Source of the DNA: a bacterium
Lineage (GTDB): Bacteria; Verrucomicrobiota; Verrucomicrobiia; Limisphaerales; RI-55
Reading direction: 5' to 3'
Length of the DNA stretch: 64,000 nucleotides
Assembly (NCBI GenBank): GCA_031362805.1
Contig: JANLTG010000215.1
Location: 13,522 to 77,521, forward strand
Positions 19,844-60,600 of this stretch are shown here, piece by piece (position 1 is the stretch's first letter; the number at the start of each line of letters is the position of its first letter). Below the pieces are notes generated by a model. That model was not told where the DNA came from, ran no database searches, and saw only the letters and a program-made list of their open reading frames with translations. The position numbers were made by a program, and so were the translations under genes.

Positions 19844-21277
<1,434 letters not shown>

Positions 21278-33375: not shown

Positions 33376-33382
33376 ACCACGC

Positions 33383-33907
33383 ATGGCCTCACCATCACTA
33401 GCGGGCTTGTTCGAGCAGAAGGTCGTCGTGGGCATCGCCGATCTGGCGGTCTCCAACAATCAGACCCTGACGCTGGCGACCTATTCGCTCGGCAGTTGCA
33501 TCGGCGTCTCCATCTACGATCCCGTCGCCAAAGTGGGCGGACTGTTGCACGTCATGCTGCCCGAGTCGAAGATCGACATCGACAAGGCCCAGCGGCAGCC
33601 CGCGATGTTCATGGACACCGGCGTCCCCGCGTTGTTCCGGGCGGCCTATCAGCTCAAGGCGGAAAAATACCGCGTGCAGATCTGCGTGGCCGGGGGCGCG
33701 CAAGTCATGGACAGCAGCGGCTTCTTCAGCATTGGCAAACGGAATTACGAGGGGCTCAAGGTTCTTTTGAACGAGCACGGGCTAAAGGTCCAAGCGGAAC
33801 AAGTGGGTGGCATGGTCAGCCGGTCAATGTATCTCAACCTCGCCACGGGCGAAGTGAAGTTGAAAGTATCGGGCCAGACAGAGGACTTCATATTATGCAA
33901 GAGCTAG
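33383..33907 (+). CDS. cheD: Chemoreceptor glutamine deamidase
   Basis: 174 aa. LATYSLGSCIGVSIYDPVAKVGGLLHVMLP is the CheD catalytic Cys region. Confidence 0.9.
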   Translation: MASPSLAGLFEQKVVVGIADLAVSNNQTLTLATYSLGSCIGVSIYDPVAKVGGLLHVMLPESKIDIDKAQRQPAMFMDTGVPALFRAAYQLKAEKYRVQICVAGGAQVMDSSGFFSIGKRNYEGLKVLLNEHGLKVQAEQVGGMVSRSMYLNLATGEVKLKVSGQTEDFILCKS

Positions 33908-46065: not shown

Positions 46066-47031
46066 TTAATCGAAAGCGTGACCGGCGCAGCAGAGCACGT
46101 TTTTGATCTTATGGCGCACGAGGTCCTTCACCATCTTGCGCGCTGGCGAGAGGTATTTCCGCGGATCGAATTCCTTCGGGTTTTCGAAGAGCACTTTGCG
46201 GATGCCGGCGGTCATCGCCATGCGCAGGTCGGTGTCGATGTTCACCTTGGTGCAACCCACGCGGCGGGCGATCTCGATGTCGGCTTCCGGCACCCCAGCG
46301 GTATCGGTGCCCATCGCGCCGCCGTATTTGTTGATCTCTTCGGCGAGATGCTTCGGCACGCTGGAAGCGCCGTGCAACACGAGCGGATAATCACCCATGC
46401 CGGCTTCCATGAGGGCTTTCTTGATGGCTTTCAAGCGCTCGAGATCGAGGTGCTGCTCGCCCTTGAACTTGTAGGCGCCGTGGCTGTTGCCGATCGCGAC
46501 GGCCAGTGAGTCCACGCCGGATTGCTTGACGAACTGCACCGCTTCATCGGGGTGGGTGTAGGCCCCGCCCTTGGAGTAAGCGCCGCCTTCTTCGCCGTCA
46601 TCGTGCTGCGCGCCGACGAGCATGCCGAGTTCGCCTTCGACGACGCAGTTATGCTTGTGCGCGTATTCGACCACCTTGCGGCAGACTTCGACGTTTTTCT
46701 CGAACGGATCGTGCGAGGCGTCGATCATGACGCTGGTAAAACCTTCATCGATGCACTCCTTGCACAGCTCGAAGGTGTCGCCGTGATCGAGGTGAACTGC
46801 GATCGGGATGGTCGAGACGCTGACGGCGGCTTCGATAAGCTTCTTGAGGTAAACTGGGTTGGCGTATTGGCGGGCGCCCTTGGAAATCTGGAGCATCACG
46901 GGCGCTTTTTCTTCTTCGCAGGCTTCGATGATCGCCTGGAGCAGCTCCATGTTGTTCACGTTGAAAGCGCCGAGGGCGTACTTGCCCTTGAGCGCCTTGG
47001 CGAACAAGTCGGTGGTGTGTGTCAGTGGCAT
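46066..47031 (-). CDS. fba: Class II fructose-bisphosphate aldolase
   Basis: 321 aa. YALGAFNVNNMELLQAIIEA, HLDHG, VMIDASH, LVLHGASSVP motifs. Confidence 0.9.
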   Translation of the reverse strand: MPLTHTTDLFAKALKGKYALGAFNVNNMELLQAIIEACEEEKAPVMLQISKGARQYANPVYLKKLIEAAVSVSTIPIAVHLDHGDTFELCKECIDEGFTSVMIDASHDPFEKNVEVCRKVVEYAHKHNCVVEGELGMLVGAQHDDGEEGGAYSKGGAYTHPDEAVQFVKQSGVDSLAVAIGNSHGAYKFKGEQHLDLERLKAIKKALMEAGMGDYPLVLHGASSVPKHLAEEINKYGGAMGTDTAGVPEADIEIARRVGCTKVNIDTDLRMAMTAGIRKVLFENPKEFDPRKYLSPARKMVKDLVRHKIKNVLCCAGHAFD

Positions 47032-47201
47032 AATCTTTGTCGTGTAGGTTTGGGGCTCCTCTCACCAGCAGTGGCAGTGAACAGAACCGGCAGCAGGCTA
47101 GGGAAAGCCCGTGGCCGAAGGAAACAAAAAATCCAGCCTGCCGGCGGCCACGCCTGGCCATTTTGGTGACTTTTCTTGCCGGCCACGCTAGCCTGCCGCC
47201 G

Positions 47202-47945
47202 ATGTCCGAAACACTGGTGATCAACGAGATCTACGTCAGTTTGCAGGGCGAAAGCACCTTTACGGGGCTGCCGTGCATCTTCATCAGGCTTACCGCCTGC
47301 AACCTGCGCTGCTCCTATTGCGACACGGCGTATGCCTTTACTGAGGGGAAGAAACGCACTCTGGAGGAAGCGCTCGTCGACGTGCGCCGGCTCGCGCAGC
47401 CTTTCCGATCTTCCAACTCCGATCTCCCAGCGCCAAAATTTCCGCTCGTCGAATTGACCGGCGGCGAACCCTTGCTCCAGCCCAACGCCCTGCCGTTGAT
47501 GCAGCGGCTCTGCGACGACGGCTTCACGGTGCTGCTCGAGACCAGCGGCGCCCACGACATCGCGAAAGTCGATCCGCGCGTCCGGCGCATCATGGATCTC
47601 AAATGCCCGAGCAGCGGCGAAGTGGCGCGAAATCGTTGGGAGAACCTGCCGCATTTGAAGGCCACGGACGAAGTGAAGTTCGTCATCGGCACGGTCGAGG
47701 ACTATGCGTGGGCGAAGCAAGTGCTGGCCGAGCACAAGCTTGCCGCCGTCTGCCCGATCCTTTTCTCGTGGGTCGCGCCGTTGCAACCGCATCAGCAGGA
47801 CAAATCGCTCAAACCGGTGCCGGCCGGACAAACGCCCATTGCCCGGGAGCAGCTCGTCGAGCGGATCATTGCCGACGCCTTGCCGGTGCGGTTCCAACTG
47901 CAACTGCACAAGATCATCTGGCCGCCGGATCAGCGGGGGGTTTGA
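47202..47945 (+). CDS. queE: 7-carboxy-7-deazaguanine synthase (radical SAM)
   Basis: ATG at 47202. INEIYVSLQGESTFTGLPCIFIRLTACNLRCSYCDT is the QueE CxxxCxxC region. Confidence 0.85.
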   Translation: MSETLVINEIYVSLQGESTFTGLPCIFIRLTACNLRCSYCDTAYAFTEGKKRTLEEALVDVRRLAQPFRSSNSDLPAPKFPLVELTGGEPLLQPNALPLMQRLCDDGFTVLLETSGAHDIAKVDPRVRRIMDLKCPSSGEVARNRWENLPHLKATDEVKFVIGTVEDYAWAKQVLAEHKLAAVCPILFSWVAPLQPHQQDKSLKPVPAGQTPIAREQLVERIIADALPVRFQLQLHKIIWPPDQRGV

Positions 47946-48018
47946 ACGCACACGGTTCGTCTTTGCCCGCAACGCGGCGGAGCAGTTTCCAAAGACATTG
48001 GCCACCTTGACCGGTCGG

Positions 48019-51000
48019 TCACGCGGCTTCGATGCCCACCTGTTCCATCAACTTGCCGAGCGCGCGGGCCGCCGAGGGGAGGACCAGGGTCAGCATTTCC
48101 AGGCGCTCGCCGACCGTCGCCACGCCTTCGGCGGCTCGAAAGTGGATGAGGCGACGATACCAGTTCAGGAACTCCTGACTGACCTCGGCTTCGTTGGCGG
48201 GCGGGCCGTCGATGCTGAATTCGCCCTGCATCAGCTCACAATGCAACCGGGCCGAGAGCGCCCGCGGATGGCCATTGAGTTGCCGCCAGAAAGGCAGCGC
48301 GTCCACGTATTGCTGGGTGAGCAACAAGGTTTCTCCCCGGGCGGCGATCAGCTCGCGATGGGTGGGATGATGCTGGATCGCCTCCCGGGTCCAATCGCGG
48401 GCAAACTCTATGAAATCAGGCTGGCTCAGTGCCAGCCGGGCGCCCAGCAGCCACGCGTCGATGAACGCACCGTTCTCAGCGACGAGTCCGTGCAAGAGCT
48501 GAAGCGCCGCGATCGGCTCGCCGTGCTCAATTTGGAAACGCGCGGCGTCCATCCGCAACGGAGCCAGCGTCGGATCTTCGTTCAAGGCAGTCGTGAATTC
48601 CTTCGCCGCCTCCGCGATGGCGCCCGACTTCCAAAGCGCGAGCGCGAGGCAGTGCCGGGGCGCACCGCCGAGGATGACCCGGTTGATGAGATAGAATGAG
48701 GGCTCGCCGCGCCGGTCGAGGCAGTTGCGGAACTGCTCAACGGCTTCCGCCCAGCGATGCAGTTCTTGATAGGCAAGGCCCAACGTGAAGTGCAACGAGG
48801 AGCTCAGCGGCTCACGGCTGGCCGCGCCGGAGGTCAGCACGGCGATGATCGCCTGCCAGCGATTGTGCTTCATCAGATGCGACGTGTATTGCGTCAGCAA
48901 CGATTCGCGCAGCTCGGGCGTGATTTCGTTGGCGGGTTTCTCGTTCAGCGCGGTGAAGGCCTCCGCGTAGCGCTGCATGCCTTCATCCATGCGCCCGGAC
49001 CGGATCAGCTCGAGACCCAGGTTCATGAGCAGGTTCGGTTCGCCCGGCAGTTCTTCGACGGCGAGTTCGAGCAGATGCAGATTGCGTGCAACCTTGTTGC
49101 GATCTTTCAACACCTCGGCGGTGTAGCCGTGATGGATCAACGGCGCCGTGCCGACACTCGATTCCATGCGCCACTCTTCGCGACGGACTTCAACGCTGCT
49201 AAACACCTGTTCGTGAACGCGGCTGATGTAGAACAATCCCGGCGCGTTGCGGAACAGCCGCGGGACGTACGTGCAGCCCTCGGCTTCTTTGCCGTGATCC
49301 ACGATGGGCAGGCGCCAGCTGATCGTATTCGGCACGGCGAGCGAGCGCATCAACTCCGCCTTGCCGGCTGCCGCCAGTTCTTCGTCCGCGTCCAGCACCA
49401 GCACCCAGTCGCCCGTGGCGTGCGCAAGGGCGGCATTGCGGGCCGCGCTGAAATCGTCGCACCAGGCGAACGAATGAACTTCGGCGCCGTGCGCCTTGGC
49501 GATCTCCACCGTGCGATCGGTCGAACCCGTGTCAACGACGACGATCTGGTGGGCGATGTCTTTGACGGAGGCCAGGCACTGACCGAGGAACTTCTCTTCG
49601 TTCTTCGCGATCAGACAGACGCTCAGCCGGGGCGCACCCGCCGGCGGCAACGGAGCCAGCGCGACTTGACTGGCTTGCTTGGTCACTGGATGCGCCTTAA
49701 GAAATTTTTGTGCTGGCGGCCAGTTTGGCGCCAGAGCCAGGGCGCGATCGACACACTCGCTCATGCGCCCGCGGTCGCCGAGATTCCAGGCGATCTCAGC
49801 GAGCAGCAGCAGTGCCTCGGGGTGGCACGGCCGGCTAGTCAGCGCGGCGTGCGCGGCGTTCCAGGCGGGAACGAACTTGTTCTGCTGGAGCAACGCGCGG
49901 GCGGAGCCGAGGAAACCCAGTCTTGCGACGGCCGGCAGTTCGATCCTCAGCGGTTGCTTCAAAGGTCGTTTGCCACTTGCGGGCAGCGCGGCCGGCTGGC
50001 AGCCCGCTAAACTCTGTGCCGCCGGCAGGCTGCCGGCAGCACATTGCCGGGCCAACCCGGCCAATCGGTTGGCGGTGTGATTCCAAGTCCAATTCTCGCG
50101 GGCATGAGCGCTGGCAAACTTGCCTTTGGCGCGAGCCTCATCGCGGTTCGCGACCACGTGCCGCATCAATTGCTGCAGCGTTGCAGCATCCGGTTCCAGC
50201 AACCAACCGTCGGCGACCAGCGGCATCCCGCTGATCTCACGTCCAAAGACCTTGCGCACTGACGGAATCTGATAGCCAGCCGCGGCCGGCACGAAATCAT
50301 CCGTTGAACCGCCTGCGGTGACGATCACCGGCCGACCACAAGCCATCGCTTCCAGCACGGGCAGCCCGAAGCCTTCGCCGCGATACGGATGCACGAGGCA
50401 GTCGCAAGCGGTGTAAAGTCCCGGCAACTCCTGCGGCGAGAGTTCCTGGTTGAGATAAAGGATCTCCGGCGCGTTAGGCTGCTTCTGAAGCTCGCGAATC
50501 TGTTGCTCCAGCGTCTGGCCGGCGTAAACGGACTGGCCGCCAAAATCTTTGATCACCAGGCAGACATCGTCTTTTGCCGTGAAGGATTCGGCGTAGGCCT
50601 TGAGCAACACGTCTGGGCCTTTGCGATAAATAGTGCCGCCAACAAAGAGGAACTTGAACGACTTGTTGGTCGCGAGTTTCAACGGCGTCACGTTCGGTTG
50701 GAAAACCTTGGGGTCAATCCCGTTGGGGAGGATGTGAACTTTCTCCGCCGGCACACCGCTGTCGATGTAGACTTGGCGGACGTAGTTCGAAGGCACCCAG
50801 AAGGCATCGACGTTCGCCGCCGCGATCACCCAATCCTTCGGCAGCGCGCCGGATTCCCAGGGCTGGATCACGGCGAGTTTGCCGGTCAACGGCCGGCTCC
50901 AGTCCGGCGGCCACGCGTGGCGGACGGTGAGCGGGGCATTGGGATTCGCTTTCGCTGCCAGCTTGCCGCGATACGATTGCAGCGGCTTCGCGAGCTTGCC

Positions 51001-54000
51001 GGTCACCGACGAAGTCTGCACCCGACGAATGGAGGCGCCGTTCTGGATGACCAGTGCGTCGGTCAGGACGCGGTTGATGTTCGAGAGGCTGCCATAGTCG
51101 AGGAATGAACCCAGCCAGTTGAGCTCGAGTTTGCCCCTGGCGGCGGAAGTCAGTGCGACGGGCGGTGTCGACTGGGGTGCCTCGGGGTCTGTCTGCCGAG
51201 CCACGTTCGCAGCCAGCAATTCCGGCAGCTTCATCCGGTTGGCGACATCGGCTAGCACCTGCCGGCGATCGCTATAATTGCCGGCCGTCCGAATCGCGTG
51301 CGCGAAGAGTCGGCGCACCTCGTCGAGTTCCCGCGCTTGATGCGCTTGGAGGATGGCCTCCATCAAATGGTCGAACTGATAGATGCGGCGATCGACCCGC
51401 GCATAGCGATCATCGTCGTGCATGACCGTTGCGAACACGTTGTAACGAATCGTGAAGCCGGCGGCTTTCAAGCGGCTCGCGTAATCGACATCTTCACGCT
51501 CGTAGAAGCCACGCGAATCGTCCCACTTCACCTGGTCGAGCACGGCGGTCTTGAGCACGCAGAGGCCGCCGGTGATGTAGGTGCTTGGATCGGCATCCCA
51601 ATAGTCGAGCAGCACGGAACCCTTGGTCCCACCCGTGGTGGCCCAGTCCCAGAACCGGCTGCCATCTGGATTCATAATGCGCACCGCCATCGCGTCGTAA
51701 CCTTCGCCGAAGCGTTGGAGACCGGCGGCAAAGCCAGGGTCAAAAACCAGATCGTCGTCGGCCACCACGAGGTGATCGTATTGCGCGTGGCGGCCGAGTT
51801 CGTTGCGCATCTTGCCCAACCGACCCGCGCGAGCCGCGTCGGCCAGGTCGACGCGCCGCACGGTGGCCGGTACGTTCGACACCTCGCCGCCCACCAGAAT
51901 CTCGTAAGCGGGCAGGTTCAATGCCTGGATGCTGGCGATCTGCCGGGCGAGTTTCTCGGCGCGCTTGCCAGCGGTGATAATGCAGAAGGAGTAACCTGCC
52001 TTGCGGGACGAATTGGAAACGGGCTGCGGTTGAAGCGCCTGTCGAACCCGCGCGATCTGAGCGGCCACCTGCGCCTCGACACACTTGCCCAACTCGTCCG
52101 GGCGCAAGCTGAGGAGCGCGAAGAACAAAGGTGTTTCACCTTCACGCTGGCCCGCCAGAAATCTGGAAACATCCGCTGAAGCAGCTGCCTCTGCGATGAA
52201 CGAAAGTGACTTCGCGATGGCCGAGTCGGGCACCGTGGATTCGCCGAACATGGGTGCTAGCAAGTGGCCCAGCGTGTGGGCTTCGGCTGTCGCCGTCGTG
52301 CGGAGCGATTCCGCTTCGGTGAGGGCTTCGACATGAGCGCGCTCGCATTGACGTTGCACGAGGCAACGGAACGCGGTCTTGGCGTCATGCGGATTCGCCC
52401 AGCGTTGCAGGCTCAAGCCGACGAGCAACAAGGTCTCCGCCGCGTCCGGTCGCAGTTCGGTGAGCTGCGCGCAAGCTTGGGCGCAGGGCTGGACCTGGCC
52501 GCTGCTGAACAGCTTCGCCGCGAGTTCGACCAGTTTGCCGAAATCATCCGTGGCCTTCGGTCCGGGCAGCGATTTCATCCGGCCGGTAATCACCTGAAGA
52601 ATGCCTGCGATGCGGACGTTCAAGCCAAGCTGGGCGCACGCCTCGCTGCGCCTGGCGAATTCCACCGCCGTCGGGAGGTCGCCGTACTTCACCATGAGCA
52701 ACGCAGCGATCAACCACGCGCGTGCCTCGCCAGATTTCTCCGGTGAACCAGCGGCATGGCAGAAAGGGAAGAGTGAGCGGAGTGAGTGTTTCTCCAGCAT
52801 CGCCTTCACCGCCTTCGCCTCGTACGAGGTGTTCACCTGCTTGCGCACCTTCGAGAGCGACTGCTCGTGCCGGCGATAAATGCCCACCTCCGTGTTCACA
52901 GACTTGAACGTCGCGACCGGTGTCAGGCGCGTCCAAAATTCGTAGTCGTGCGCGCGCGGGAAAGCGGGGTTATAGCCACCGGCCTGGGCGTAGCAGGACT
53001 TGCGGACCAGCGTGCAGACATTCGGAATGCGGTTCTCCACGACGGTGTCACCGAGAAGCGTCGCGCCCCAGCCGTGATAATCGCGGAAGACCCAGCGCTC
53101 GCAGATGTTGAGCTGCTCATCCGCCACCTGCAAGTGACCGTAGAGCACATCGACGTCGGGATGCTCACTTAACGTCCTGGCGTAAAGCTCGAGCGTCGTG
53201 GGCAGCAAGACATCGTCGGAATCCAGCCACACCAGAAACTCGCCGCGCGCCTCGGCGACACATCGATTGCGCGTCTCCGGACCGCCGCTGTGTTCTTTGA
53301 CAATGAACCGCACGCGGGGATCGGTGATGCGTTTCATCACCTCGGCCGTGCCGTCGGTGGAACCGTCGTCCACCACCACGAGCTCAAAGTTTTGATGCGT
53401 CTGGTTGAAGGCGCTCGCCAGGGTTTGCGCGATGAACTCCGCCCGGTTGTAAGTGGGCACGCAGATTGAAAAGAATTGTTCGCCGGTTTTCGTCGGCAAC
53501 GGCGCGGCGGCCTTCGCGGGTACTCGTGCGGCGTGGCGCGGCAGCAGTCGGTGACCTTCCGCCTTGGTCTCATTGCTGCGCGCAAAGGCGACGAGCTTGT
53601 TGTGAAACGTGTAGAGGTCCGGCTGCTTGAAGACCGAGTATTCGCGCATCAACCCGTGGCGCGAGCTCTTCGTCTCGAGTTTGTTGTCGGTCACCGCGTA
53701 GTCATGCTGGATGACCATGAACGGCCAGTACATCAGCACGAAATCACCGTGGACCTTGCTGATGCGGCACGAGAGATCGACACCTTCACCGCCAAAGAGC
53801 AGCGGGTCTTGTCCGCCCAGCTTGCGCCAGGTGTCGATGCGGAACGCGCTGTTGCCCTCCGTGTCGATGTCCGCCGGAAACGGCAGGTCACCCAGGTTGT
53901 AGTGCCGGGCGCGACTGTTGTGCGGGTGATCCGACTTCGGCAGCACCTTGCCGCGAAACGCATGAACATCGAATGCTTCAAAGCCCTCCAGCGCAGCGGC

Positions 54001-57000
54001 GAGATAGCCGGGTGCGGCGATGGCGTCGTCATCGATGAACACCGCGAAGTTCGAGCGGGCGAAATGCACGCCTATGTTGCGGCCCTCGGCGAGGATGGCG
54101 TTGAAGCCGACGCGGAGGTGCAGGATCGGCCGGCGCGCGAGCTCGGCGTGGATCGCCTCGTTGCCCCCGTTGTCCACCACGATGATCTCGTGCGGCGGGT
54201 TCGTCGAAGCGGCGAGCGAGTCCAAGCACTGGATCAACCCCTGGTTGATCTTGTAAGCGACGATGATGACCGACAATTGCGGCTTCGCCTCCGCACGGTG
54301 GTCCGTGCGCGGCAGCCTGTCGTAGTTGATCAACGACTGGTATTGGCGGCACTCCATTTGCGCGGCGGCAAACTGTCTTTCCTTCAAGAGATCGAAGCCG
54401 CGTTGCAGATGGGCGAACGCAGTCTGGTTGCCGGTTGGCGCGTCGCCGCCGGTCACCTCGGCCTGCGCAATCACTGCGCGCTTCTGGAACTTGGCGGACA
54501 AAATCCCGTAGCGCTTCTGGCCCTTGGCATGATCATAGGGCACCGCATCCGTCACGCCCTTGTAGAGACCGCCTTTGGCTGGCTTCTCAAATTGCTTCTG
54601 TTCGATGAGGTTGAATGCCCCGGCAAACTTCTCCGTGATATCCCACGAGAATTCAATCGGCTCACATGGCGTCGCCGAGTGATTCACATCCGTCAGCAGC
54701 AGGAACAGCCCGCCTGGTTTCACCACGCGCATGACCTCCCGAATGGTTTGCTCCAGATCCGCGACGTGGTCGAGCGAGTTGAACGACATCACGACGTCAA
54801 AGTGATCAGCGGGAAACGGAATCGACTCGGACGGCGCAGCGACGTAGCGCATCCGGTGCTGGTCAGCGCCCAGTTTCAAATACTGGCCGGCCAGCGGGTC
54901 GAGGCCGACGCGTTCGGCCGTCATGTTTGCCCATTCCAAACTGCCGCGCGGTCCGCAGCCGAGGTCGAGAATGCGTTTGCCGGTGAAAAATGCGTGATCC
55001 AAACCGAAGTGCGTCGTATAGTACTGTTCGTAATGCTTGTTGCTCAAAGTGCCTTCGCGCTCCTTCTGAAGTTTCCAATAGTCGAGCTCGTGCGTTTCCT
55101 TGAAAGCCACGTCGGGCGCGGCGCCGGATGCGGGAAAGCGGGGAGGGACAGCCTGCGGAGGAGTCGCGGTGGAGGTTGTGGCGGCGGGGAGAGTGGCCGC
55201 TTCGCCGCTGAGCGCGAGCTCCACCAACAAGCTGCTTGCTTCGGGGTGCTTGGGCACGAGCAAGAGCGCCTGCGAGAGATGACGGCGCGCGACTTCAATA
55301 TTGCCGACCGCGAGCTGCAAGCCCGCCACGGCCACCAGCAGGTCAGCATCGGTTTGATCTAGTTGTAGTGCCTGCTCCAGCAGCGTGATGGCTCCAGCCG
55401 CATTGCCTTGTCCAATCGCTTCCTGTCCGGACTTAAGCAGGCTCTCCAGTTGTTGAACGCGCTCGCGCACCGAGCTGGGTGCCGGTCCGAGATCAGCGAG
55501 GTTGCTCTGGGCAAGGGCGTTCTGTGGCTCAATTGCCAACACGCGCTCCAACGCGAGGCGGGTTGATTCCCGGTCACCCGTCTTGAAGAAGCACTTCGCG
55601 AGGATCAGCAACGATTCGATGTCTTCGGGGCGTTGCGCCAGCACGCGCGCGGCAGCCCTGGCTGCCTCGAGCCAGCGCCCGCCGTGGAGGCAGACGTTGG
55701 CGAACAGCTTCAGGGCAGCGACCCCATTGGGATCAATGGCCAAGGCTTCGCACGCCTGCGTTTCGATCGCGGCCAATGACGGTGAAGAGGCAGAGGCAGG
55801 GGCGGAGGCCGGGGCCGGGGCGACGGGAACGATCGGTTTCATAACTTCGGCCGCCTTGGGCGCGGGGGCAGTTTCCTGTTCGGTGAATGCGCAGATGGGC
55901 TGATGGCCTTGCTCGAGTTCAAACAGCTCCACGCCCTCGCGAATGACCGGGAACAATTTGATGTCCTTGATCGCCGGAGCCTGGCCGGTCGCGAGTGCGG
56001 CTTTGAGCACGTCGACGATTTCCTTCACCCGCTTGTGCGCAGCCACCGGCAGGTGGGGCAGGCACTGTTGGACGCCTGCCCACTGTCCTTTGCGAGCGAA
56101 GGCGACCGCGAGATTGGCCAGCACCTCATAGCGCGCATCGCGGTGGAATGCTTCCGTCAACACCTTGATCGCCAGCTCCAGCGGGGCGATGTGCGATTGC
56201 AGGAGCAGCGTGCCCAGGTCAAACAGCGCCATGGCCTCGGCCTTGGGCCGGTCGGCGCAACGTGCGAGCGTCGGGTAAAGTTTGGCGAGATCGAGGCCGC
56301 CCAAACGATCGATCGTGCGCTGGAACGCCAGGGCACAGGCGGTTTGAATCTGCGCCGCCTTGCGAGCGGTCATGCTGTCGTCGTGTCGGCGATAGTAGTA
56401 GAGAATCTCCGGCACTTGAACGGTGGCAAACTTCTCCCCGATGCGAAGCCACATCTCCCAGTCTTCCGCTCCTTCGAGGTCGGTGGCGTAGAGCCCCACG
56501 ACCTCCTGGCATTGCCGCCGGTAGAGAAATGCCGCGTTGCCCGGATTGCCGCGCAGCACATTGCGGAACGTCATGTCGGGGGCGGGGCGCACGTCGCTGA
56601 GCCGGCTTTGCCCGTCGATGGACGCAAATGCGCCGACGGCCAGGCCGGCGGCCGGATGCTGGTCGAGGGCAACAACGAGGGCTTCGAGGAAAATCGGGGC
56701 GCAATAATTGTCGGCCGAAGTCCAGGTGAGCAACTCACCGCGCGCGATTTGAAAACCGGCGTTCAACGCCCTGGGCAGGCGCTGGTTCGTTTGGTGGAGG
56801 ACGCGCACCCGCGGGTCTTTGAGCGTATCCAGATACTCCCGCGTGCCATCCGTCGAGCCGTCGTTGACGATGATGAGTTCGAAGTCATTGAAGGTCTGGG
56901 CCAGGATGCTTTCAATCGCTTGCGGCAGGAGCCGCAGGTGATTGTAAGTCGGGAGAACCACGGATGCGCGGGGTGTTCCGGCTGTTCCATTTTTCCGGAA

Positions 57001-57672
57001 TTGTCCCACGCCAACCTGCGAATAGCCCGAGGTGTAGTCCAGCTTGCTGACCGGGCCGTAGGCTGACTCGAGGTGCGACACGAACTCGCGCTCGCTGAAG
57101 CCCCGGGTGTGATGGGGGTCTTCCATCCAGCCGATCGGCGTCGAGACGATGAACCGGGTTTGGGGGTGAATGTAAGGCGCGAGCCGTTCCAGAAACGACT
57201 GCTCTTCCTCCGGGTAGATGTGCTCCAGCACCTCGCACAGCACCACCGTGTCAAAAGGTTTCATGGCCCCGAGATCGAGCGACTCAAGGGCCGTCAGCAC
57301 GGGGGTTACCTTGGGCAGCGCGAAACGGCGCAGCCCATCCAGGGCCTCGGCAAACGCGTCCACCGCGACGATTTCGGTCACCGCCGGCGCCGCGGCGAGC
57401 CAGCGGGTCACGTTGCCGATGCCGCAGCCGATTTCGAGGACCCGACCCGTGGCGTGGCGGACAGTGAATTGCAGGCGCTCAAAATAAGCGGGCGCCTCCT
57501 GCCGGGTTTCTTCCCACGAACAGCGCATGAGTTTCTCGTAGGTGGCGAGCTGCTTCTCGCCACCGTCCTGACCAACGCGCCACTGATTGCGCTGTGCCAG
57601 ACTCAGGCCGGGGCGCCGGATCGGCGAGCTGGGCGACGCGGGCTGCGGGGATGGGTTGGATGAAGTGTTCAT
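48019..57672 (-). CDS. Giant (about 3,217 aa) multidomain glycosyltransferase/methyltransferase/TPR protein
   Basis: Single uninterrupted ORF (track 48019-57876). ATG at 57672 lies 19 nt after the upstream stop. Motifs, in plus-strand coordinates: MT VLEIGCG 57421-57450; GT2 VVLPTYN 56941-56970 and FELIIVNDGSTDGT 56842-56889; TPR about 55500-55760; MT RILDLGCGP about 54943-54981; GT2 LSVIIVAYK 54241-54280 with FIDDDA 54022-54042; GT2 FSICVPTYN 53441-53475 with LDSDD 53211-53240; GT-A-like YSFCIITAGK 51961-52000 with VVADDD 51741-51770; GT4 GEGFGLPVLEAMACGRPVIV 50321-50389; GT2 LSVCLIAKNEEK 49591-49630 with LVLDADE 49381-49410; C-terminal TPR 48019 to about 49100. Confidence 0.85.
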   Translation of the reverse strand: MNTSSNPSPQPASPSSPIRRPGLSLAQRNQWRVGQDGGEKQLATYEKLMRCSWEETRQEAPAYFERLQFTVRHATGRVLEIGCGIGNVTRWLAAAPAVTEIVAVDAFAEALDGLRRFALPKVTPVLTALESLDLGAMKPFDTVVLCEVLEHIYPEEEQSFLERLAPYIHPQTRFIVSTPIGWMEDPHHTRGFSEREFVSHLESAYGPVSKLDYTSGYSQVGVGQFRKNGTAGTPRASVVLPTYNHLRLLPQAIESILAQTFNDFELIIVNDGSTDGTREYLDTLKDPRVRVLHQTNQRLPRALNAGFQIARGELLTWTSADNYCAPIFLEALVVALDQHPAAGLAVGAFASIDGQSRLSDVRPAPDMTFRNVLRGNPGNAAFLYRRQCQEVVGLYATDLEGAEDWEMWLRIGEKFATVQVPEILYYYRRHDDSMTARKAAQIQTACALAFQRTIDRLGGLDLAKLYPTLARCADRPKAEAMALFDLGTLLLQSHIAPLELAIKVLTEAFHRDARYEVLANLAVAFARKGQWAGVQQCLPHLPVAAHKRVKEIVDVLKAALATGQAPAIKDIKLFPVIREGVELFELEQGHQPICAFTEQETAPAPKAAEVMKPIVPVAPAPASAPASASSPSLAAIETQACEALAIDPNGVAALKLFANVCLHGGRWLEAARAAARVLAQRPEDIESLLILAKCFFKTGDRESTRLALERVLAIEPQNALAQSNLADLGPAPSSVRERVQQLESLLKSGQEAIGQGNAAGAITLLEQALQLDQTDADLLVAVAGLQLAVGNIEVARRHLSQALLLVPKHPEASSLLVELALSGEAATLPAATTSTATPPQAVPPRFPASGAAPDVAFKETHELDYWKLQKEREGTLSNKHYEQYYTTHFGLDHAFFTGKRILDLGCGPRGSLEWANMTAERVGLDPLAGQYLKLGADQHRMRYVAAPSESIPFPADHFDVVMSFNSLDHVADLEQTIREVMRVVKPGGLFLLLTDVNHSATPCEPIEFSWDITEKFAGAFNLIEQKQFEKPAKGGLYKGVTDAVPYDHAKGQKRYGILSAKFQKRAVIAQAEVTGGDAPTGNQTAFAHLQRGFDLLKERQFAAAQMECRQYQSLINYDRLPRTDHRAEAKPQLSVIIVAYKINQGLIQCLDSLAASTNPPHEIIVVDNGGNEAIHAELARRPILHLRVGFNAILAEGRNIGVHFARSNFAVFIDDDAIAAPGYLAAALEGFEAFDVHAFRGKVLPKSDHPHNSRARHYNLGDLPFPADIDTEGNSAFRIDTWRKLGGQDPLLFGGEGVDLSCRISKVHGDFVLMYWPFMVIQHDYAVTDNKLETKSSRHGLMREYSVFKQPDLYTFHNKLVAFARSNETKAEGHRLLPRHAARVPAKAAAPLPTKTGEQFFSICVPTYNRAEFIAQTLASAFNQTHQNFELVVVDDGSTDGTAEVMKRITDPRVRFIVKEHSGGPETRNRCVAEARGEFLVWLDSDDVLLPTTLELYARTLSEHPDVDVLYGHLQVADEQLNICERWVFRDYHGWGATLLGDTVVENRIPNVCTLVRKSCYAQAGGYNPAFPRAHDYEFWTRLTPVATFKSVNTEVGIYRRHEQSLSKVRKQVNTSYEAKAVKAMLEKHSLRSLFPFCHAAGSPEKSGEARAWLIAALLMVKYGDLPTAVEFARRSEACAQLGLNVRIAGILQVITGRMKSLPGPKATDDFGKLVELAAKLFSSGQVQPCAQACAQLTELRPDAAETLLLVGLSLQRWANPHDAKTAFRCLVQRQCERAHVEALTEAESLRTTATAEAHTLGHLLAPMFGESTVPDSAIAKSLSFIAEAAASADVSRFLAGQREGETPLFFALLSLRPDELGKCVEAQVAAQIARVRQALQPQPVSNSSRKAGYSFCIITAGKRAEKLARQIASIQALNLPAYEILVGGEVSNVPATVRRVDLADAARAGRLGKMRNELGRHAQYDHLVVADDDLVFDPGFAAGLQRFGEGYDAMAVRIMNPDGSRFWDWATTGGTKGSVLLDYWDADPSTYITGGLCVLKTAVLDQVKWDDSRGFYEREDVDYASRLKAAGFTIRYNVFATVMHDDDRYARVDRRIYQFDHLMEAILQAHQARELDEVRRLFAHAIRTAGNYSDRRQVLADVANRMKLPELLAANVARQTDPEAPQSTPPVALTSAARGKLELNWLGSFLDYGSLSNINRVLTDALVIQNGASIRRVQTSSVTGKLAKPLQSYRGKLAAKANPNAPLTVRHAWPPDWSRPLTGKLAVIQPWESGALPKDWVIAAANVDAFWVPSNYVRQVYIDSGVPAEKVHILPNGIDPKVFQPNVTPLKLATNKSFKFLFVGGTIYRKGPDVLLKAYAESFTAKDDVCLVIKDFGGQSVYAGQTLEQQIRELQKQPNAPEILYLNQELSPQELPGLYTACDCLVHPYRGEGFGLPVLEAMACGRPVIVTAGGSTDDFVPAAAGYQIPSVRKVFGREISGMPLVADGWLLEPDAATLQQLMRHVVANRDEARAKGKFASAHARENWTWNHTANRLAGLARQCAAGSLPAAQSLAGCQPAALPASGKRPLKQPLRIELPAVARLGFLGSARALLQQNKFVPAWNAAHAALTSRPCHPEALLLLAEIAWNLGDRGRMSECVDRALALAPNWPPAQKFLKAHPVTKQASQVALAPLPPAGAPRLSVCLIAKNEEKFLGQCLASVKDIAHQIVVVDTGSTDRTVEIAKAHGAEVHSFAWCDDFSAARNAALAHATGDWVLVLDADEELAAAGKAELMRSLAVPNTISWRLPIVDHGKEAEGCTYVPRLFRNAPGLFYISRVHEQVFSSVEVRREEWRMESSVGTAPLIHHGYTAEVLKDRNKVARNLHLLELAVEELPGEPNLLMNLGLELIRSGRMDEGMQRYAEAFTALNEKPANEITPELRESLLTQYTSHLMKHNRWQAIIAVLTSGAASREPLSSSLHFTLGLAYQELHRWAEAVEQFRNCLDRRGEPSFYLINRVILGGAPRHCLALALWKSGAIAEAAKEFTTALNEDPTLAPLRMDAARFQIEHGEPIAALQLLHGLVAENGAFIDAWLLGARLALSQPDFIEFARDWTREAIQHHPTHRELIAARGETLLLTQQYVDALPFWRQLNGHPRALSARLHCELMQGEFSIDGPPANEAEVSQEFLNWYRRLIHFRAAEGVATVGERLEMLTLVLPSAARALGKLMEQVGIEAA

Positions 57673-57691: not shown

Positions 57692-60600
57692 CTACGGTTC
57701 GTTGAGGACGAGGCACTCGAAGGAGTCCTCCCACAGGAAGATGGTTTCGATGACCGGTGAATGGCTGTACCAGAGTTCCCGCAAGCGCGCGCTGAGCCGC
57801 TCGAATTGGGAACTCTCCGGTTCGCGATACCACTCACCGTCGTTGAGCAGAATGTCGAACGGGTTGGTTTCAGCACTGGCGAACCAACCGCGGCCAGGGG
57901 CGAACTCCGGGTGCAGTCCGAACGGGCGGTCCTCTTCGGTGCGCTTGTTGAGGAAGATCAATTTGCCCGCCCGCTCGGTGACGAGCCAGCGATGGTACGG
58001 GCGGCCAAAGGCAAACTCGGCGAAGGGCGCGGGCGTGATGATCGCGCCGGCCTTGGCGATGCGGACCATTTCCCGGCACGCGGTCGCGGGATCGTCGAGG
58101 TGCTCAAAGACGTGATGACTGTAGGCAAAGTCGAACTCCTTGTCGCGGAACGGGAGCGGGCCGTCGATGCGGGCGTTGACAAAGCGAATGCCGCGGCGCG
58201 CGAAGGCTGCCACATCGATCGTGGGTCCATGGCCAAGGGCGCGCTCGGCGGGAGCGACATGTAAATCGACGGCGACGGTAGCGCCTGCCACCGGATTATT
58301 GCCACAACCGAGATCGACGATCGCCTTGCTCGCGCGCAGTCGCGCCTGCAGCAATTGATGACGCGCGTGCGGCTGCGGTTTCGCCGGCTTGGCCGGCCGG
58401 GCCGGTGAGTTGCGTCGGGCGTTGGGGGTGGCCTGCTTGCCGAGCAGGACTTCGTACATCGACGCTTCCAACGAATCGACGTCCTTGCGTTCAAAACGTC
58501 GCACTGAGTCCCGGGCTTTCAGCGTCAAACGGGCGCGGAGCAACGTATCGGTGCAGGCGAGGTTGATCGCGGCGGCGAGCGTCGCGGGATGCTCCAGCTC
58601 CTTGACGAGCAATCCATTTTCGTGGTGACGAACAACCTCATTCATCGGCGCGAGATCGGACGTGATCACCAGCGCTTCACAGGCCAGGGCCTCAATGAAC
58701 ACGATGCCAAAGCCTTCCTGTCGGCTGGGGGTGCAGAAGCAATCGCAGAAGCTGTAGTACTCGGGCAGCTCCCCGCTGGGTACGCTCTCGATAAAGTGGC
58801 AGCGGGCGCTCACGCCCAGCTCCTTCGCGAGCTGCGCATAGGGGCGCACGTCGCCCCGGCCCACGGCGATCACCGAGTAATCAGCCCCCAACAACGGCAG
58901 AGTCCGGATCACCGTATCGAGGTTTTTTTCGGCACTCTTCCGGCCCACGTGGAGAATCCGGTGCTTGCCGGGAAAACGTTGTTCAAATGCGGCGCGTCGT
59001 TGCGGAGCCTCGATCCGGCGGAACACCTCGAAGTCCACCCGGTTGGGAAGGGTGACAATTTGCGATTCAGCGACGCCGCGTGCCACCACCAACCGGCGGA
59101 CGACGTCGCTGACGGCGATGACCTGGTCGGCTTGGCGAATGGAATCATGCAACCAATCCGCACGTTGGTCGTGGACGGAGACGATCACCGGAACTCCGGG
59201 GACTTTTGCCGCGGTGGCAAAGTCGCAGGCCCAATAGCCGCCATAGGCGCGCACCACGTCGATGTTGAGCTCGCGGATTCGAGCCGCCAGTTCCCCTTCG
59301 GTGGTGGGGATGACCTGCATGCCGTGGGCGCAGCGGGCCACCGACTCCTTCGGTGACAGGCAGTAGACTTCATCAAAGCAGCCGGCGGGATTGTAGTAGC
59401 CCTTCAGCCAGCTCGCATAGCCCGCGCGTTCGTACGCTTCCAGCGGATCGCTCGGCACCACCGCCAGCCGGCGCGGCTCACGAACCTTGCCCGTCGTTCC
59501 CAGCAGGTAGCCTTGATCCAGTTGTTGCAACTGGGGCGCGGGCAGGTGCCGCAGAAAGCCATCGAGCTTTTGGCGCAGCGGTGCCAACTCGGCCGAGTCG
59601 AGGAAGTTGAGCGAATGCAACGGCCCGACCGTGAACTCCCGCACCGACTTCAATCCGGCCCGCGCGAACAGCTGGGCCAGCGAGTGCTTGGGATCTTCAT
59701 AGCCGTATTTCCACCGGCCGCCCTGCTCCTGATCGGACTTGCCAATCCGGTAGGCCAGCGACCGCGCGTTGGGCACCAGGGAGAAAACTTGCTTGCGGGC
59801 AACGCGGCGGGATTCGCTCAGGATATGCACGATTTCGTCGTCGCTAAAATGTTCCAGCACGCCGCTGCTCCAGACGAAATCCACGGTGCCGTTGCCCAGC
59901 GGCAGAGGTTGGCGAAGGTCAACACAGTGCGTCGGCGGCGGTTCGAGTCCCAGCTCGCGGAAGACCGCCAGGCCGAAGTCGAGACAGGGCTGGCTGTAGT
60001 CGAGCAGGACGATCTTGCGCCCTTGCAGCGCCAGCCAGGCGGACATCGCGGCCGTGCCGCTGCCTTGTTCCAGCACCACATCGCCGGGTTGAGTCAGCTC
60101 GAGCACCGGCTTTACCCATTCGGGGACGTTGCCTTTGCGCACGCGGGCGGCGATCTCGCCGGGAGTCGCCCCCGCAGTGATGGCTTCATGCCACTCCTCC
60201 GAGTCCAAGGCGCGCGTCGTTCCCGCCGCCCGCTTTGCGCCTGGGCGCGGTTGCGCATTTTCTTCCGTAACAAGCTTCTCGCGGGACACCGGCGCAACGG
60301 CGGGTGCGGCGGACACCGGCTCGCTGGTTGGCGATGTCTTGTGGCCATGCCAGGCGACGAACAGGCCGTCGGCCGGCTTCTTATCATAGGCCACGAATTT
60401 CCATTCCGCTGCGCCACAGAGGGCGCGAAGCTGCGCGGTCAAAGGCTCGGGCTTGAACCATTTTTCCCAGGCCGGCGTCTTGAACGCACCCCAACGTTCC
60501 GCGTTCTTGTCGATCACGACCAGGTGTCCGCCGGGCTTGAGCAGGCGGTTCATTTCCCGCAAAGCGGCGGCCTCGCTCTGGGCGTGTTCCAGAGCCTCCA

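What the first reader, a model, noticed from the sequence alone, without database searches (positions are those of the whole stretch)
48019..57672. A 3,217-aa single polypeptide with alternating MT/GT/TPR modules and clear internal module duplication
N-to-C order read from the translation: MT, GT2, TPR/helical block, Ala/Pro/Ser linker (APAPASAPASASS), TPR, MT, GT2, GT2, helical block, GT-A-like, GT4, TPR, GT2, long TPR tail. Two GT2 modules are obvious paralogues: ASVVLPTYNHLRLLPQAIESILAQTFNDFELIIVNDGSTDGTREYLDTLKDPRVRVL versus FSICVPTYNRAEFIAQTLASAFNQTHQNFELVVVDDGSTDGTAEVMKRITDPRVRFI. This indicates growth by internal duplication or fusion. The last module (LSVCLIAKNEEKFLGQCL...VVVDTGSTDRT...LVLDADEEL followed by TPRs) is itself the common stand-alone GT2+TPR architecture, so the protein looks like a fusion of several formerly separate enzymes. 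The ORF is uninterrupted over 9.6 kb, which suggests it is maintained by selection.
Basis: seen in the sequence. Interest (0 to 1): 0.8.

Follow-up and report, generated by a model that had tools for sequence, protein, structure and literature searches.

The report
Giant fused flagellin-glycosylating enzyme
This 3,217-residue gene is real and sits just downstream of the flagellin gene; it most likely fuses six sugar-adding and two methyl-adding enzymes onto a GmaR-like flagellin glycosyltransferase, making one soluble machine that decorates the flagellar filament protein, and relatives in the same bacterial phylum range from 640 to over 5,000 residues.

Summary
All catalytic motifs are intact and conserved in orthologous modules.

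The "internal duplication" idea is not supported. The two quoted GT2 modules are only 30% identical over 221 aa. Each has its own orthologues at 50-89% identity, and some relatives carry one module without the other. Growth by fusion is supported.

The gene ends a same-strand run: flagellin (269 aa), WecB epimerase, a 1,367-aa MT/GT4 fusion, then this gene. All nine informative homologue contexts also lie next to flagellar genes, usually fliW-csrA-flagellin.

The C-terminal TPR-GT2-TPR module is the invariant part. It is C-terminal in 150 of 151 family members. It also occurs alone as a 644-aa protein in the same fliW-csrA-flagellin slot. Its best solved relative is the GT domain of Listeria GmaR, a flagellin O-GlcNAc transferase (E 2e-27).

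Best reading: a soluble cytoplasmic megaenzyme of Verrucomicrobiota that starts, extends and methylates an O-glycan on flagellin. No biochemical evidence was available. I found no description of it in the literature searched. It is a new variant of a known kind.

The parts
48019..57672 (-). Complete CDS of the 3,217-aa multi-GT/MT/TPR protein, stop codon included
   Evidence: GC3 is 0.72-0.81 throughout. No transmembrane-like segment; maximum Kyte-Doolittle 19-residue mean is 1.52.
57133..57489 (-). MT1: class I SAM methyltransferase, aa 62-180, motif VLEIGCGIGN
   Evidence: Pfam Methyltransf_12/25/23. Motif conserved in 4 orthologues.
56368..56964 (-). GT2a: GT-A glycosyltransferase, aa 237-435. 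It carries a conserved S-A-D-N in place of the canonical DxD.
   Evidence: PF00535, 112 bits. S, D and N are 100% conserved in 47 orthologous modules.
55873..56265 (-). hel1: helical block, aa 470-600, that travels with GT2a as a cassette
   Evidence: No Pfam hit. Co-occurs with GT2a in P0004, P0006, P0014, P0019-21.
55735..55872 (-). Ala/Pro/Ser-rich linker, aa 601-646
   Evidence: Composition scan. Other linkers lie at aa 812-858 and 2543-2570.
55213..55725 (-). TPR1 array, aa 650-820
   Evidence: TPR_19, TPR_14, TPR_16.
54673..54990 (-). MT2: class I SAM methyltransferase, aa 895-1000, motif ILDLGCGPRG
   Evidence: Methyltransf_11, 62 bits. Motif conserved in 2 orthologues.
53908..54273 (-). 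GT2b: GT-A, aa 1134-1255, DDD at 1214-1216
   Evidence: PF00535, 55.9 bits. DDD 100% conserved in 18 orthologues.
52852..53472 (-). GT2c: GT-A, aa 1401-1607, DSDD at 1484-1487
   Evidence: PF00535, 111 bits. Motif 100% conserved in 14 orthologues.
51988..52755 (-). Helical TPR-like block, aa 1640-1895, with a 49-residue long helix
   Evidence: No Pfam or NCBIfam hit. AlphaFold pLDDT 88, all helical. Only weak TPR-type fold matches, E >= 0.04.
51403..51981 (-). GTAx: divergent GT-A, aa 1898-2090, DDD at 1972-1974
   Evidence: Glyco_tranf_2_3, 40.5 bits. DDD 100% conserved in 15 orthologues.
50053..50844 (-). GT4: GT-B retaining-type glycosyltransferase, aa 2277-2540, E-x7-E at 2433-2441
   Evidence: Glycos_transf_1, 75 bits. 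Both Glu 100% conserved in 27 orthologues.
49693..49905 (-). TPR2: short TPR array, aa 2590-2660, first part of the invariant C-terminal module
   Evidence: TPR_14/TPR_8. AlphaFold helices 1-71 of the model.
49123..49626 (-). GT2d: GmaR/SunS-type protein-directed GT-A, aa 2683-2850, DADE at 2761-2764
   Evidence: PDB sequence search: GmaR GT domain E 2.2e-27, SunS 1e-18, ThuS 9e-13. Foldseek top hits are ThuS/SunS, E 5e-14. Motifs conserved in 28 orthologues.
48022..49119 (-). TPR3: C-terminal TPR superhelix of about 17 helices, aa 2852-3217. Presumed flagellin-binding platform.
   Evidence: Pfam TPR_2, TPR_19. AlphaFold pLDDT mostly above 90. Fold matches to the OGT TPR domain. The binding role is inferred from FlmG and GmaR (PMC7591256, PMC9638930).
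57692..61795 (-). Upstream 1,367-aa partner protein: alpha/alpha-toroid-like N-terminal domain, then MT, MT, GT4, MT
   Evidence: Pfam and NCBIfam. Its stop is 19 nt before the giant's ATG.
61792..62970 (-). Non-hydrolysing UDP-GlcNAc 2-epimerase (WecB). Overlaps the next gene by 4 nt.
   Evidence: TIGR00236, 440 bits against a cut-off of 210; NeuC model only 69 bits. ATGA overlap.
63123..63932 (-). Flagellin, 269 aa (D0/D1 only). Central segment aa 131-190 is 27% Ser/Thr. Presumed acceptor.
   Evidence: Flagellin_N plus Flagellin_C. Alignment and composition.

Best explanation
The gene encodes a soluble, cytoplasmic flagellin-glycan assembly megaenzyme of a Verrucomicrobiota bacterium.

**Shown:**
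- It is the last gene of a same-strand run: flagellin, WecB, a 1,367-aa MT/GT4 protein, then this 3,217-aa protein.
- Relatives occupy the same place next to fliW-csrA-flagellin or other flagellar genes.
- Its C-terminal TPR-GT2-TPR module is the invariant core of the family. This module also occurs alone in the same genomic slot, and it is homologous to the GT domain of GmaR, the Listeria flagellin O-GlcNAc transferase.
- All six GT modules and both MT modules keep their catalytic motifs.
- It has no membrane segment.

**Inferred mechanism:**
- The TPR arrays hold flagellin before it is exported, as shown for FlmG and proposed for GmaR.
- The C-terminal GmaR-like GT2 puts the first sugar, probably a HexNAc, on Ser/Thr of the exposed central segment of the 269-aa flagellin.
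- Four further GT-A modules and the GT4 module, together with the GT4 of the upstream protein, extend the chain using nucleotide sugars. These include UDP-ManNAc made by the adjacent WecB.
- The SAM methyltransferase modules O-methylate or cap the glycan.
- Fusion keeps all steps on one scaffold.
- Gain, loss and swapping of N-terminal modules between lineages changes the glycan.
For: **Genomic context**
- Flagellin, WecB and an MT/GT4 fusion lie directly upstream on the same strand, with a 4-nt overlap and a 19-nt gap.
- Nine of nine homologue contexts with readable flanks are flagellar. These are L001, L002/3, L004, L005, L006, L007, L089, L091 and L093.
- In GTDB genomes, 13 of the 17 Verrucomicrobiota-type loci whose giant ORF start lies within the locus have flagellin, fliW or csrA upstream.

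**The C-terminal module**
- Sequence matches in the PDB: GmaR E 2e-27, SunS E 1e-18, ThuS E 9e-13.
- The AlphaFold model (pLDDT 88.3) is a GT-A domain followed by a TPR superhelix. Foldseek top hits are ThuS/SunS and then the OGT TPR domain.
- The module is at the C-terminus in 150 of 151 family members, which range from 629 to 5,089 aa.
- The stand-alone 644-aa form P0219 is 40.6% identical over 635 aa. It sits right after a flagellin that is 81% identical to the window's.

**Integrity of the enzyme**
- Catalytic motifs are conserved in every module.
- There is no transmembrane segment.

**Family and precedent**
- Some homologue giants carry other glycan-tailoring modules: GT29, GT11, PF01973, pyruvyl transferase, sulfotransferase and radical SAM.
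- Precedent for TPR-mediated flagellin binding: FlmG (PMC7591256) and GmaR (PMC9638930).
Against: - There are no biochemical data. No flagellin glycan has been reported for this lineage in the literature searched.
- The link to flagellin rests on synteny and on homology of one module of fourteen.
- Four of the 17 complete Verrucomicrobiota loci show no flagellar gene within the DNA held.
- Most stand-alone GT2-TPR relatives outside the phylum (43 of 52) are not next to flagellin.
- The helical part of the C-terminal module shows no sequence match to the TPR or antirepressor domains of GmaR.
- The order of action, the donor sugars and the methylation targets are all inferred.
- GT2a has S-A-D-N instead of DxD. 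This variant is conserved, but its activity is untested.
Confidence: 0.7

Rival explanations
1. The enzyme builds a cell-envelope polysaccharide (O-antigen, capsule or EPS), or a soluble oligosaccharide, and its position next to flagellin is incidental.
For: - The GT2 and GT4 modules give their best NCBIfam partial matches to EPS, teichuronic acid and colanic acid transferases, all far below cut-off.
- WecB is also used for enterobacterial common antigen and capsules (established knowledge).
- Four of 17 complete Verrucomicrobiota loci lack a flagellar gene in the DNA held.
Against: - Flagellar synteny recurs in nine of nine inspected contexts, spanning 40-76% protein identity and including a Planctomycetota relative.
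- The locus has no transmembrane segment, no polyprenyl-phosphate priming transferase, no flippase, polymerase or ABC exporter.
- The invariant module belongs to the protein/peptide-directed GmaR/SunS clade.
Confidence: 0.1
2. It is a protein O-glycosyltransferase complex whose main or additional targets are proteins other than flagellin, such as pilins, S-layer or other secreted proteins.
For: - TPR-GT enzymes such as OGT have many substrates; fold match.
- A cyanobacterial OGT homologue modifies a pilin (PMC9306852, listed).
- The protein has several separate TPR arrays.
Against: - The conserved neighbour is flagellin with fliW-csrA. No pilin or S-layer gene was seen.
- The stand-alone form sits immediately after flagellin.
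Confidence: 0.1
3. Only the C-terminal GmaR-like module works on flagellin. Some N-terminal modules are inactive scaffolds, or the protein also acts as a regulator, as GmaR does.
For: - GmaR is a moonlighting anti-repressor (PMC9638930).
- GT2a lacks a canonical DxD.
- fliW-csrA regulators are adjacent in relatives.
Against: - All catalytic motifs, including S-A-D-N, are 100% conserved across 14-47 orthologous modules.
- There is no detectable similarity to the GmaR antirepressor domain.
- Uniform GC3 and conserved modules argue for selection on each part.
Confidence: 0.07
4. The ORF is an assembly chimera or a run of decayed genes that only appears continuous.
For: None found. The window's own sequence is not in the public collections searched (best hit 74% identity), so independent reads could not be checked.
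Against: - Every junction is reproduced in independent assemblies. P0004 is collinear over 93% of the protein.
- Ten family members are 3,500 aa or longer, up to 5,089 aa.
- Coding-type GC3 holds throughout.
- The chance probability of the open frame is about 1e-41 (own arithmetic).
Confidence: 0.02

Closest known systems
GmaR (Listeria monocytogenes flagellin O-GlcNAc transferase and MogR anti-repressor; PDB 22ao, PMC9638930)
   Same: - The GT2 domain of the C-terminal module is homologous (E 2e-27, DADE motif aligned).
- The layout is the same: a GT-A domain followed by a long helical-repeat array.
- Both are encoded among flagellar genes.
- Both are soluble cytoplasmic enzymes.
   Different: - GmaR is 637 aa with one GT. 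Here the module is the tail of a 3,217-aa protein with five more GTs and two MTs.
- There is no detectable similarity to GmaR's TPR, linker or antirepressor domains.
- An extra short TPR precedes the GT.
- An anti-repressor function is not expected.
SunS / ThuS peptide S-glycosyltransferases (PDB 7msn, 7msk)
   Same: They are the best structural matches to the C-terminal module (Foldseek E about 5e-14). They also match by sequence (E 1e-18; NCBIfam TIGR04195, 72.9 bits). Both are a GT-A domain plus helical repeats acting on a polypeptide acceptor.
   Different: - The score is far below the SunS family cut-off (350 bits).
- SunS modifies Cys of a bacteriocin precursor.
- No bacteriocin genes are present here.
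FlmG (Caulobacter flagellin pseudaminyl transferase; PMC7591256)
   Same: It has the same logic: a TPR domain binds flagellin and a fused GT domain glycosylates it in the cytoplasm. Its substrate is also a short flagellin of about 270 aa.
   Different: - FlmG is TPR (N-terminal) plus a single GT-B domain, 596 aa, and transfers a nonulosonic acid.
- No nonulosonic-acid genes lie in this locus.
- The adjacent epimerase is WecB-type, not NeuC-type.
Flagellin glycosylation islands with separate or bi-domain GTs (Pseudomonas Fgt1/Fgt2 and FgtA; Clostridioides difficile flagellar GTs with MT domains; Maf proteins). Recalled from memory, not tested here.
   Same: These are clusters downstream of flagellin that encode several GTs, sugar-nucleotide enzymes and methyltransferases. 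They build methylated oligosaccharides on flagellin Ser/Thr.
   Different: - Those systems use several proteins of up to about 1,200 aa.
- Here the steps are fused into one or two polypeptides of 1,400-5,000 aa.
- The Maf domain (PF01973) is absent from the window protein, though it is listed for homologues P0042, P0056, P0087 and P0088.
Multidomain polysaccharide enzymes such as WbdA/WbdD (E. coli O9a) and WsaE (Geobacillus S-layer glycan). Recalled from memory.
   Same: Several GT domains and a methyltransferase sit on one polypeptide or complex, and methylation caps the chain.
   Different: - Those enzymes act on lipid-linked glycans at the membrane and have at most 2-3 catalytic domains.
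- This protein has eight catalytic domains, TPR arrays, no membrane association and a flagellar context.

Membership tests
GT2 (GT-A, Pfam PF00535 / clan members) | Profile match above the curated cut-off | tested here: met
   GT2a 112 bits, GT2b 55.9, GT2c 111 and GT2d 79.5 against a cut-off of 23.3. GTAx reaches 40.5 bits on PF13641 against a cut-off of 27.
GT2 (GT-A, Pfam PF00535 / clan members) | Acidic DxD-type metal/nucleotide-sugar motif retained | tested here: met
   DDD in GT2b, DSDD in GT2c, DDD in GTAx and DADE in GT2d are all 100% conserved. GT2a has S-A-D-N with S, D and N 100% conserved in 47 orthologues, a non-canonical variant.
GT4 (GT-B, PF00534) | Profile match above cut-off and the E-x7-E motif | tested here: met
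   75 bits against a cut-off of 26.4. E2433 and E2441 are 100% conserved in 27 orthologues.
Class I SAM-dependent methyltransferases | Profile match and the glycine-rich motif I | tested here: met
   MT1 46.5 bits on PF08242 and MT2 62.2 bits on PF08241. Motifs VLEIGCGIGN and ILDLGCGPRG are conserved.
GmaR-type flagellin glycosyltransferase | GT domain homologous to that of GmaR | tested here: met
   phmmer E 2.2e-27 over 189 residues of PDB 22ao_A.
GmaR-type flagellin glycosylltransferase | GT-A domain followed by a helical-repeat (TPR) domain | tested here: met
   AlphaFold model with pLDDT 88.3. Pfam TPR hits.
GmaR-type flagellin glycosyltransferase | Encoded with flagellar genes | tested here: met
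   Flagellin lies 5.5 kb upstream on the same strand. Nine of nine homologue contexts are flagellar.
GmaR-type flagellin glycosyltransferase | Transfers GlcNAc to flagellin Ser/Thr | not testable with these tools
   This needs enzymology or mass spectrometry.
GmaR-type flagellin glycosyltransferase | C-terminal antirepressor domain that binds MogR | tested here: not met
   The PDB sequence search matched only the 204-residue GmaR GT-domain entry. No other GmaR chain appeared among the hits. The module is GmaR-like in catalysis only, and I do not file it as a GmaR orthologue.
SunS-family peptide S-glycosyltransferase (TIGR04195) | Score at or above the family cut-off | tested here: not met
   72.9 bits against a cut-off of 350. 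This is related folds and clade only.
Maf-type flagellin nonulosonic-acid transferase (PF01973) | Presence of the Maf/DUF115 domain | tested here: not met
   PF01973 is not among the 25 best Pfam families shown of 33 for the whole protein, nor among the per-segment hits. It is listed only for homologues P0042, P0056, P0087 and P0088.
FlmG-type flagellin glycosyltransferase | N-terminal TPR plus C-terminal GT-B, with nonulosonic-acid biosynthesis genes | tested here: inconclusive
   TPR arrays and one GT-B (GT4) are present, but in the order GT4 then TPR. The adjacent epimerase is WecB, not NeuC. No FlmG sequence was available for direct comparison.
Membrane-embedded GT2 synthases (cellulose/chitin/PNAG type) | Transmembrane channel segments | tested here: not met
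   No hydrophobic 19-residue window reaches 1.6; the maximum is 1.52.

The most novel reading that the evidence does not exclude
The family is a collinear glycan assembly line, the carbohydrate counterpart of NRPS/PKS megasynthases. The C-terminal GmaR-like module anchors flagellin on its TPR superhelix and primes it. The N-terminal modules then act in a fixed, architecture-encoded order. Under this reading the glycan structure (sugar order, linkages, methyl caps) could be read from the module order. Natural module shuffling, from 644 aa to 5,089 aa beside flagellins that are 81-92% identical, would diversify the flagellar surface, for example against phage or grazers.
Probability: 0.2. Interest if true: 0.85.

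Novelty: new variant of a known kind. Interest (0 to 1): 0.58.

Why it matters
**What is known and what is new.** Flagellin glycosylation is known mostly from pathogens, where it uses sets of separate enzymes. Here an environmental phylum, Verrucomicrobiota, appears to have fused the whole pathway into one soluble polypeptide. It carries up to eight catalytic domains in this window and more in relatives. All of it hangs on a conserved GmaR-like priming module.

**What follows if correct:**
- These bacteria should have unusually complex, methylated flagellar glycans, which nobody has looked at.
- A natural series from 644 to 5,089 aa sits next to nearly identical flagellins. That series allows direct tests of how adding a module changes a glycan.
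- The protein would be a self-contained, membrane-free scaffold for protein glyco-engineering.

**A practical point for annotation.** Pipelines label these genes only as "glycosyltransferase" or "TPR protein" (names).

Tried and rejected
- **Whole-protein self-BLAST** gave no off-diagonal hits at E 1e-3. Tiled and module-wise BLAST was needed. It showed only family-level similarity between modules, so recent internal duplication is rejected.
- **The minus-strand 327-aa ORF 47022..48005** looked like a downstream operon member. It has no Pfam hit and GC3 of 0.62. The real gene there is the convergent plus-strand QueE-like radical SAM gene 47037..47945, with GC3 0.77. I consider it unrelated to the island.
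- **Promoter and terminator scans** of 47-64 kb were at chance level and uninformative.
- **The helical block aa 1640-1895** has no Pfam or NCBIfam hit. The confident AlphaFold model gave only weak TPR-like fold matches, E >= 0.04. No specific function can be assigned.
- **The GTDB scan** did not find the window's own genome; the best match was 69% identity. The organism is placed only at phylum level, by its relatives.
- **Six literature searches** found no description of giant flagellar GT fusions or of Verrucomicrobiota flagellin glycosylation. Absence from this library does not prove absence from the literature.
- **Two context look-ups** fell on contigs too short upstream to be informative: P0001 and P0200.
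Full report
**1. The observation**

The minus strand carries an open frame from 57876 to the stop at 48019-48021. It lies 19 nt downstream of the stop of the preceding same-strand gene.

GC3 is 0.72-0.81 in each 300-codon block, matching the other genes of the window. By my own arithmetic from the base composition, a stop-free run of this length has a chance probability of about 1e-41.

The quoted peptide strings are at the stated places.

No segment is hydrophobic enough to be a membrane helix. The protein is therefore predicted to be soluble.

**2. Are the modules functional?**

For each catalytic module I collected orthologous modules (at least 38% identity) from the homologues found and scored the catalytic motifs.

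- The glycine-rich SAM motifs of both methyltransferases are conserved.
- The acidic motifs of GT2b (DDD), GT2c (DSDD), GTAx (DDD) and GT2d (DADE) are conserved.
- The E-x7-E motif of the GT4 is conserved.
- The key residues are invariant in 14-28 orthologues for the GT modules. The MT comparisons rest on only 2-4 orthologues.
- GT2a has S-A-D-N where DxD is expected, but S, D and N are invariant in 47 orthologues. This is a maintained variant and does not indicate decay.

The refutation condition "motifs degenerate in most modules" is not met.

**3. Duplication or fusion?**

The two "obvious paralogues" share 26 of 57 residues in the quoted stretch but only 29.9% over 221 aa. All other GT2 pairs are weaker.

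Module-by-module BLAST against 106 homologues shows the following.

- Each module has its own orthologues: GT2a at 50-70% identity, GT2c at 50-84%.
- The GT2a-GT2c similarity stays near 30% in every protein.
- The two modules are distributed independently. P0001-3, P0005 and P0007-12 have GT2c without a GT2a orthologue. P0014 and P0019-21 have GT2a without GT2c.
- GT2a travels with the following helical block as a cassette, and in more distant proteins with MT1.

The protein therefore grew by joining modules that had already diverged, not by duplication within the gene.

Every junction in the window protein is seen in at least one independent assembly, and P0004 is collinear over 93% of the protein. 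This also rules out an assembly chimera.

**4.

On the same strand upstream lie three genes.

- A 269-aa flagellin (63123..63932).
- A non-hydrolysing UDP-GlcNAc 2-epimerase, WecB (TIGR00236, 440 bits against a cut-off of 210).
- A 1,367-aa protein that is itself a fusion: a toroid-like N-terminal domain, then MT, MT, GT4, MT.

The epimerase and the 1,367-aa gene overlap by 4 nt, and the giant starts 19 nt after that gene. Downstream, the real neighbour is a convergent QueE-like radical SAM gene, so the giant ends the unit. cheR, cheD and cheB lie 12-15 kb away.

**5. The synteny is conserved**

I looked up the contigs of eleven homologues. Two, P0001 and P0200, had no usable upstream flank. 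All nine others lie beside flagellar genes.

| Homologue | Context |
|---|---|
| P0006, P0004 | fliW-csrA-flagellin, then sugar genes, then the giant |
| P0008 | fliW-csrA-flagellin, a TPR protein, a pyruvyl transferase, then the giant |
| P0030 | fliW-csrA, then MT and GT genes, then the giant |
| P0017 | flgK-flagellin-fliW-csrA, then the giant |
| P0024 (Sedimentisphaerales) | between flgK/flgL and fliD |
| P0003 (73% identity) | fliW-csrA-flagellin, then the giant, with nothing in between |
| P0219 (stand-alone, 644 aa) | fliW-csrA-flagellin, then P0219 |
| P0196 (5,089 aa) | beside flgL-flgK-flgN-flgI-flgH-flgA-rod-fliS |

A scan of one genome per GTDB species gave 28 close loci, nearly all labelled Verrucomicrobiota. 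In 17 of them the 5' end of the giant ORF lies inside the locus, and 13 of those have flagellin, fliW or csrA upstream. Four further ORFs are still open at more than 3,690 aa.

**6. The invariant core**

The C-terminal TPR2-GT2d-TPR3 block (aa 2590-3217) is the only part shared by all near relatives.

A profile of it finds 9,340 proteins at E <= 1e-30 among 1.84 billion cluster representatives. Pooling the proteins returned contain the whole module, and 150 of these have it within 40 residues of the C-terminus. Their lengths are:

| Length (aa) | Proteins |
|---|---|
| under 800 | 13 |
| 800-1,500 | 25 |
| 1,500-2,500 | 64 |
| 2,500-3,500 | 39 |
| 3,500 or more | 10 |

The stand-alone P0219 aligns end to end with the module at 40.6% identity over 635 aa. 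It follows a flagellin that is 81% identical to the window's. The 2,650-aa P0003 follows a flagellin that is 92% identical.

The family is therefore best described as an ancestral stand-alone flagellar GT that has accreted modules at its N-terminus.

**7. What the core is**

- *By sequence.* The best solved relative of GT2d is the glycosyltransferase domain of Listeria GmaR (E 2.2e-27, DADE aligned). Next come the peptide S-glycosyltransferases SunS and ThuS.
- *By structure.* An AlphaFold model built on 12 homologues is confident (pLDDT 88.3, pTM 0.77). It shows a short TPR, a GT-A domain and a TPR superhelix of about 17 helices. Its best fold matches are ThuS/SunS and then the TPR domain of human OGT.
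- *What is known of GmaR.* It transfers GlcNAc to flagellin, and its TPR is proposed to recognise flagellin (PMC9638930).
- *What is known of FlmG.* In Caulobacter FlmG the TPR domain is necessary and sufficient for flagellin binding (PMC7591256).
- *Limit of the homology.* Only the GT domain of GmaR is detectably homologous; the antirepressor part is not. I call the module GmaR-like in catalysis and do not call it a GmaR orthologue.
- *Outside Verrucomicrobiota.* The nearest relatives (34-44% identity) are stand-alone proteins of about 400-800 aa. Nine of these 52 loci have a flagellin ORF within 10 kb, in Ignavibacteria, Planctomycetota including Brocadia, Chloroflexota, Sulfobacillus and Gemmatimonadota. 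This is well above chance but not universal.

**8. Mechanism proposed (inferred)**

- Flagellin is captured on the TPR arrays in the cytoplasm.
- The C-terminal GT2 primes Ser/Thr in the exposed central segment. That segment, aa 131-190, is 27% Ser/Thr and includes NATANTTVISTT.
- The remaining four GT-A modules and the GT4, plus the GT4 of the upstream protein, extend the glycan from nucleotide sugars, including UDP-ManNAc made by WecB.
- The two MT modules here and the three upstream methylate it.
- Relatives carry other tailoring modules: GT29-like, GT11-like, FkbM, pyruvyl transferase, sulfotransferase, radical SAM and PF01973. This is consistent with lineage-specific glycans.
- The other helical blocks are TPR-like with no specific match. 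They may be further docking surfaces or spacers.

**9. Rivals**

- *Cell-envelope polysaccharide role.* Disfavoured by the recurrent flagellar synteny, the lack of any membrane segment, priming transferase or exporter, and the protein-directed clade of the core module.
- *Other or additional protein substrates.* Cannot be excluded.
- *Partial inactivity or a regulatory role.* Disfavoured by motif conservation.
- *Assembly artefact.* Effectively excluded by independent collinear homologues.

**10. Novelty**

Flagellin glycosylation islands, TPR-GT flagellin transferases and GT-MT fusions are all known. I did not find this fused, shuffled megaenzyme form in six full-text searches. The features that appear undescribed are:

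- fusion of the whole pathway into soluble polypeptides of up to 5,089 aa;
- a fixed C-terminal priming module;
- combinatorially varying N-terminal modules;
- a widespread distribution in Verrucomicrobiota.

I rate it a new variant of a known kind, of moderate to good interest. All functional statements remain predictions until a flagellin glycan is measured.

Noticed in passing
window 57692..61795 (-): The upstream 1,367-aa protein is itself a fusion: a ~300-aa N-terminal domain with a faint squalene-hopene-cyclase-like (alpha/alpha toroid) signal, then MT, MT, GT4, MT. In L001 and L004 the toroid-like domain plus the first MT form a separate ~640-aa gene in the same position. What a terpene-cyclase-like fold does in a flagellin glycosylation island is unexplained.
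   Followed up: partly
window 18100..19850: A low-GC island (0.47-0.51 against a window mean of 0.62) holds two minus-strand ORFs (18162..19088, 308 aa; 19349..19840, 163 aa). Neither has a Pfam hit. A PemK/MazF-like toxin ORF lies next to it (17227..17559 +, 30.8 bits). Probably horizontally acquired.
   Followed up: partly
window 2578..2622 (+): Rfam Acido-Lenti-1 sRNA motif (42.9 bits, gathering score 37) overlapping the called start of ORF 2604..4406. This motif family is reported from Acidobacteria and Lentisphaerae, which fits a PVC-superphylum origin for the window.
   Followed up: no
window 32554..35831 (+): Chemotaxis genes cheR, cheD and cheB lie 12-15 kb from the flagellin island. 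They are separated from it by a UDP-glucose/GDP-mannose dehydrogenase-family gene (36810..38108) and a branched-chain amino-acid ABC transporter operon.
   Followed up: no
window 47022..48005 (-) and 47037..47945 (+): The 327-aa minus-strand ORF just downstream of the giant is a shadow ORF (GC3 0.62, no Pfam hit). The real gene is a convergent QueE-like radical SAM on the plus strand (TIGR04349, 256 bits, below the 300 cut-off).
   Followed up: yes
loci L008, L009, L011, L021, L032, L035 (GTDB records): Contigs carrying Verrucomicrobiota-type giants and flagellar genes are deposited under the names Bifidobacteriaceae, Candidatus Angelobacter, Baltobacteraceae and Sulfotelmatobacter. These are likely binning or labelling errors in the public MAGs.
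   Followed up: no
homologues P0002, P0008, P0016-18, P0042, P0056, P0060, P0025, P0034: Other family members carry modules absent here: GT29 sialyltransferase-like, GT11 fucosyltransferase-like, PF01973 (Maf-type), pyruvyl transferase, sulfotransferase, radical SAM/SPASM and even protein kinase domains.
   Followed up: no
L091 against L089 against the window: Flagellins that are 81-92% identical are followed by a 644-aa, a 2,650-aa or a 3,217-aa (plus 1,367-aa) enzyme. This implies very fast turnover of the glycosylation machinery relative to its presumed substrate.
   Followed up: partly
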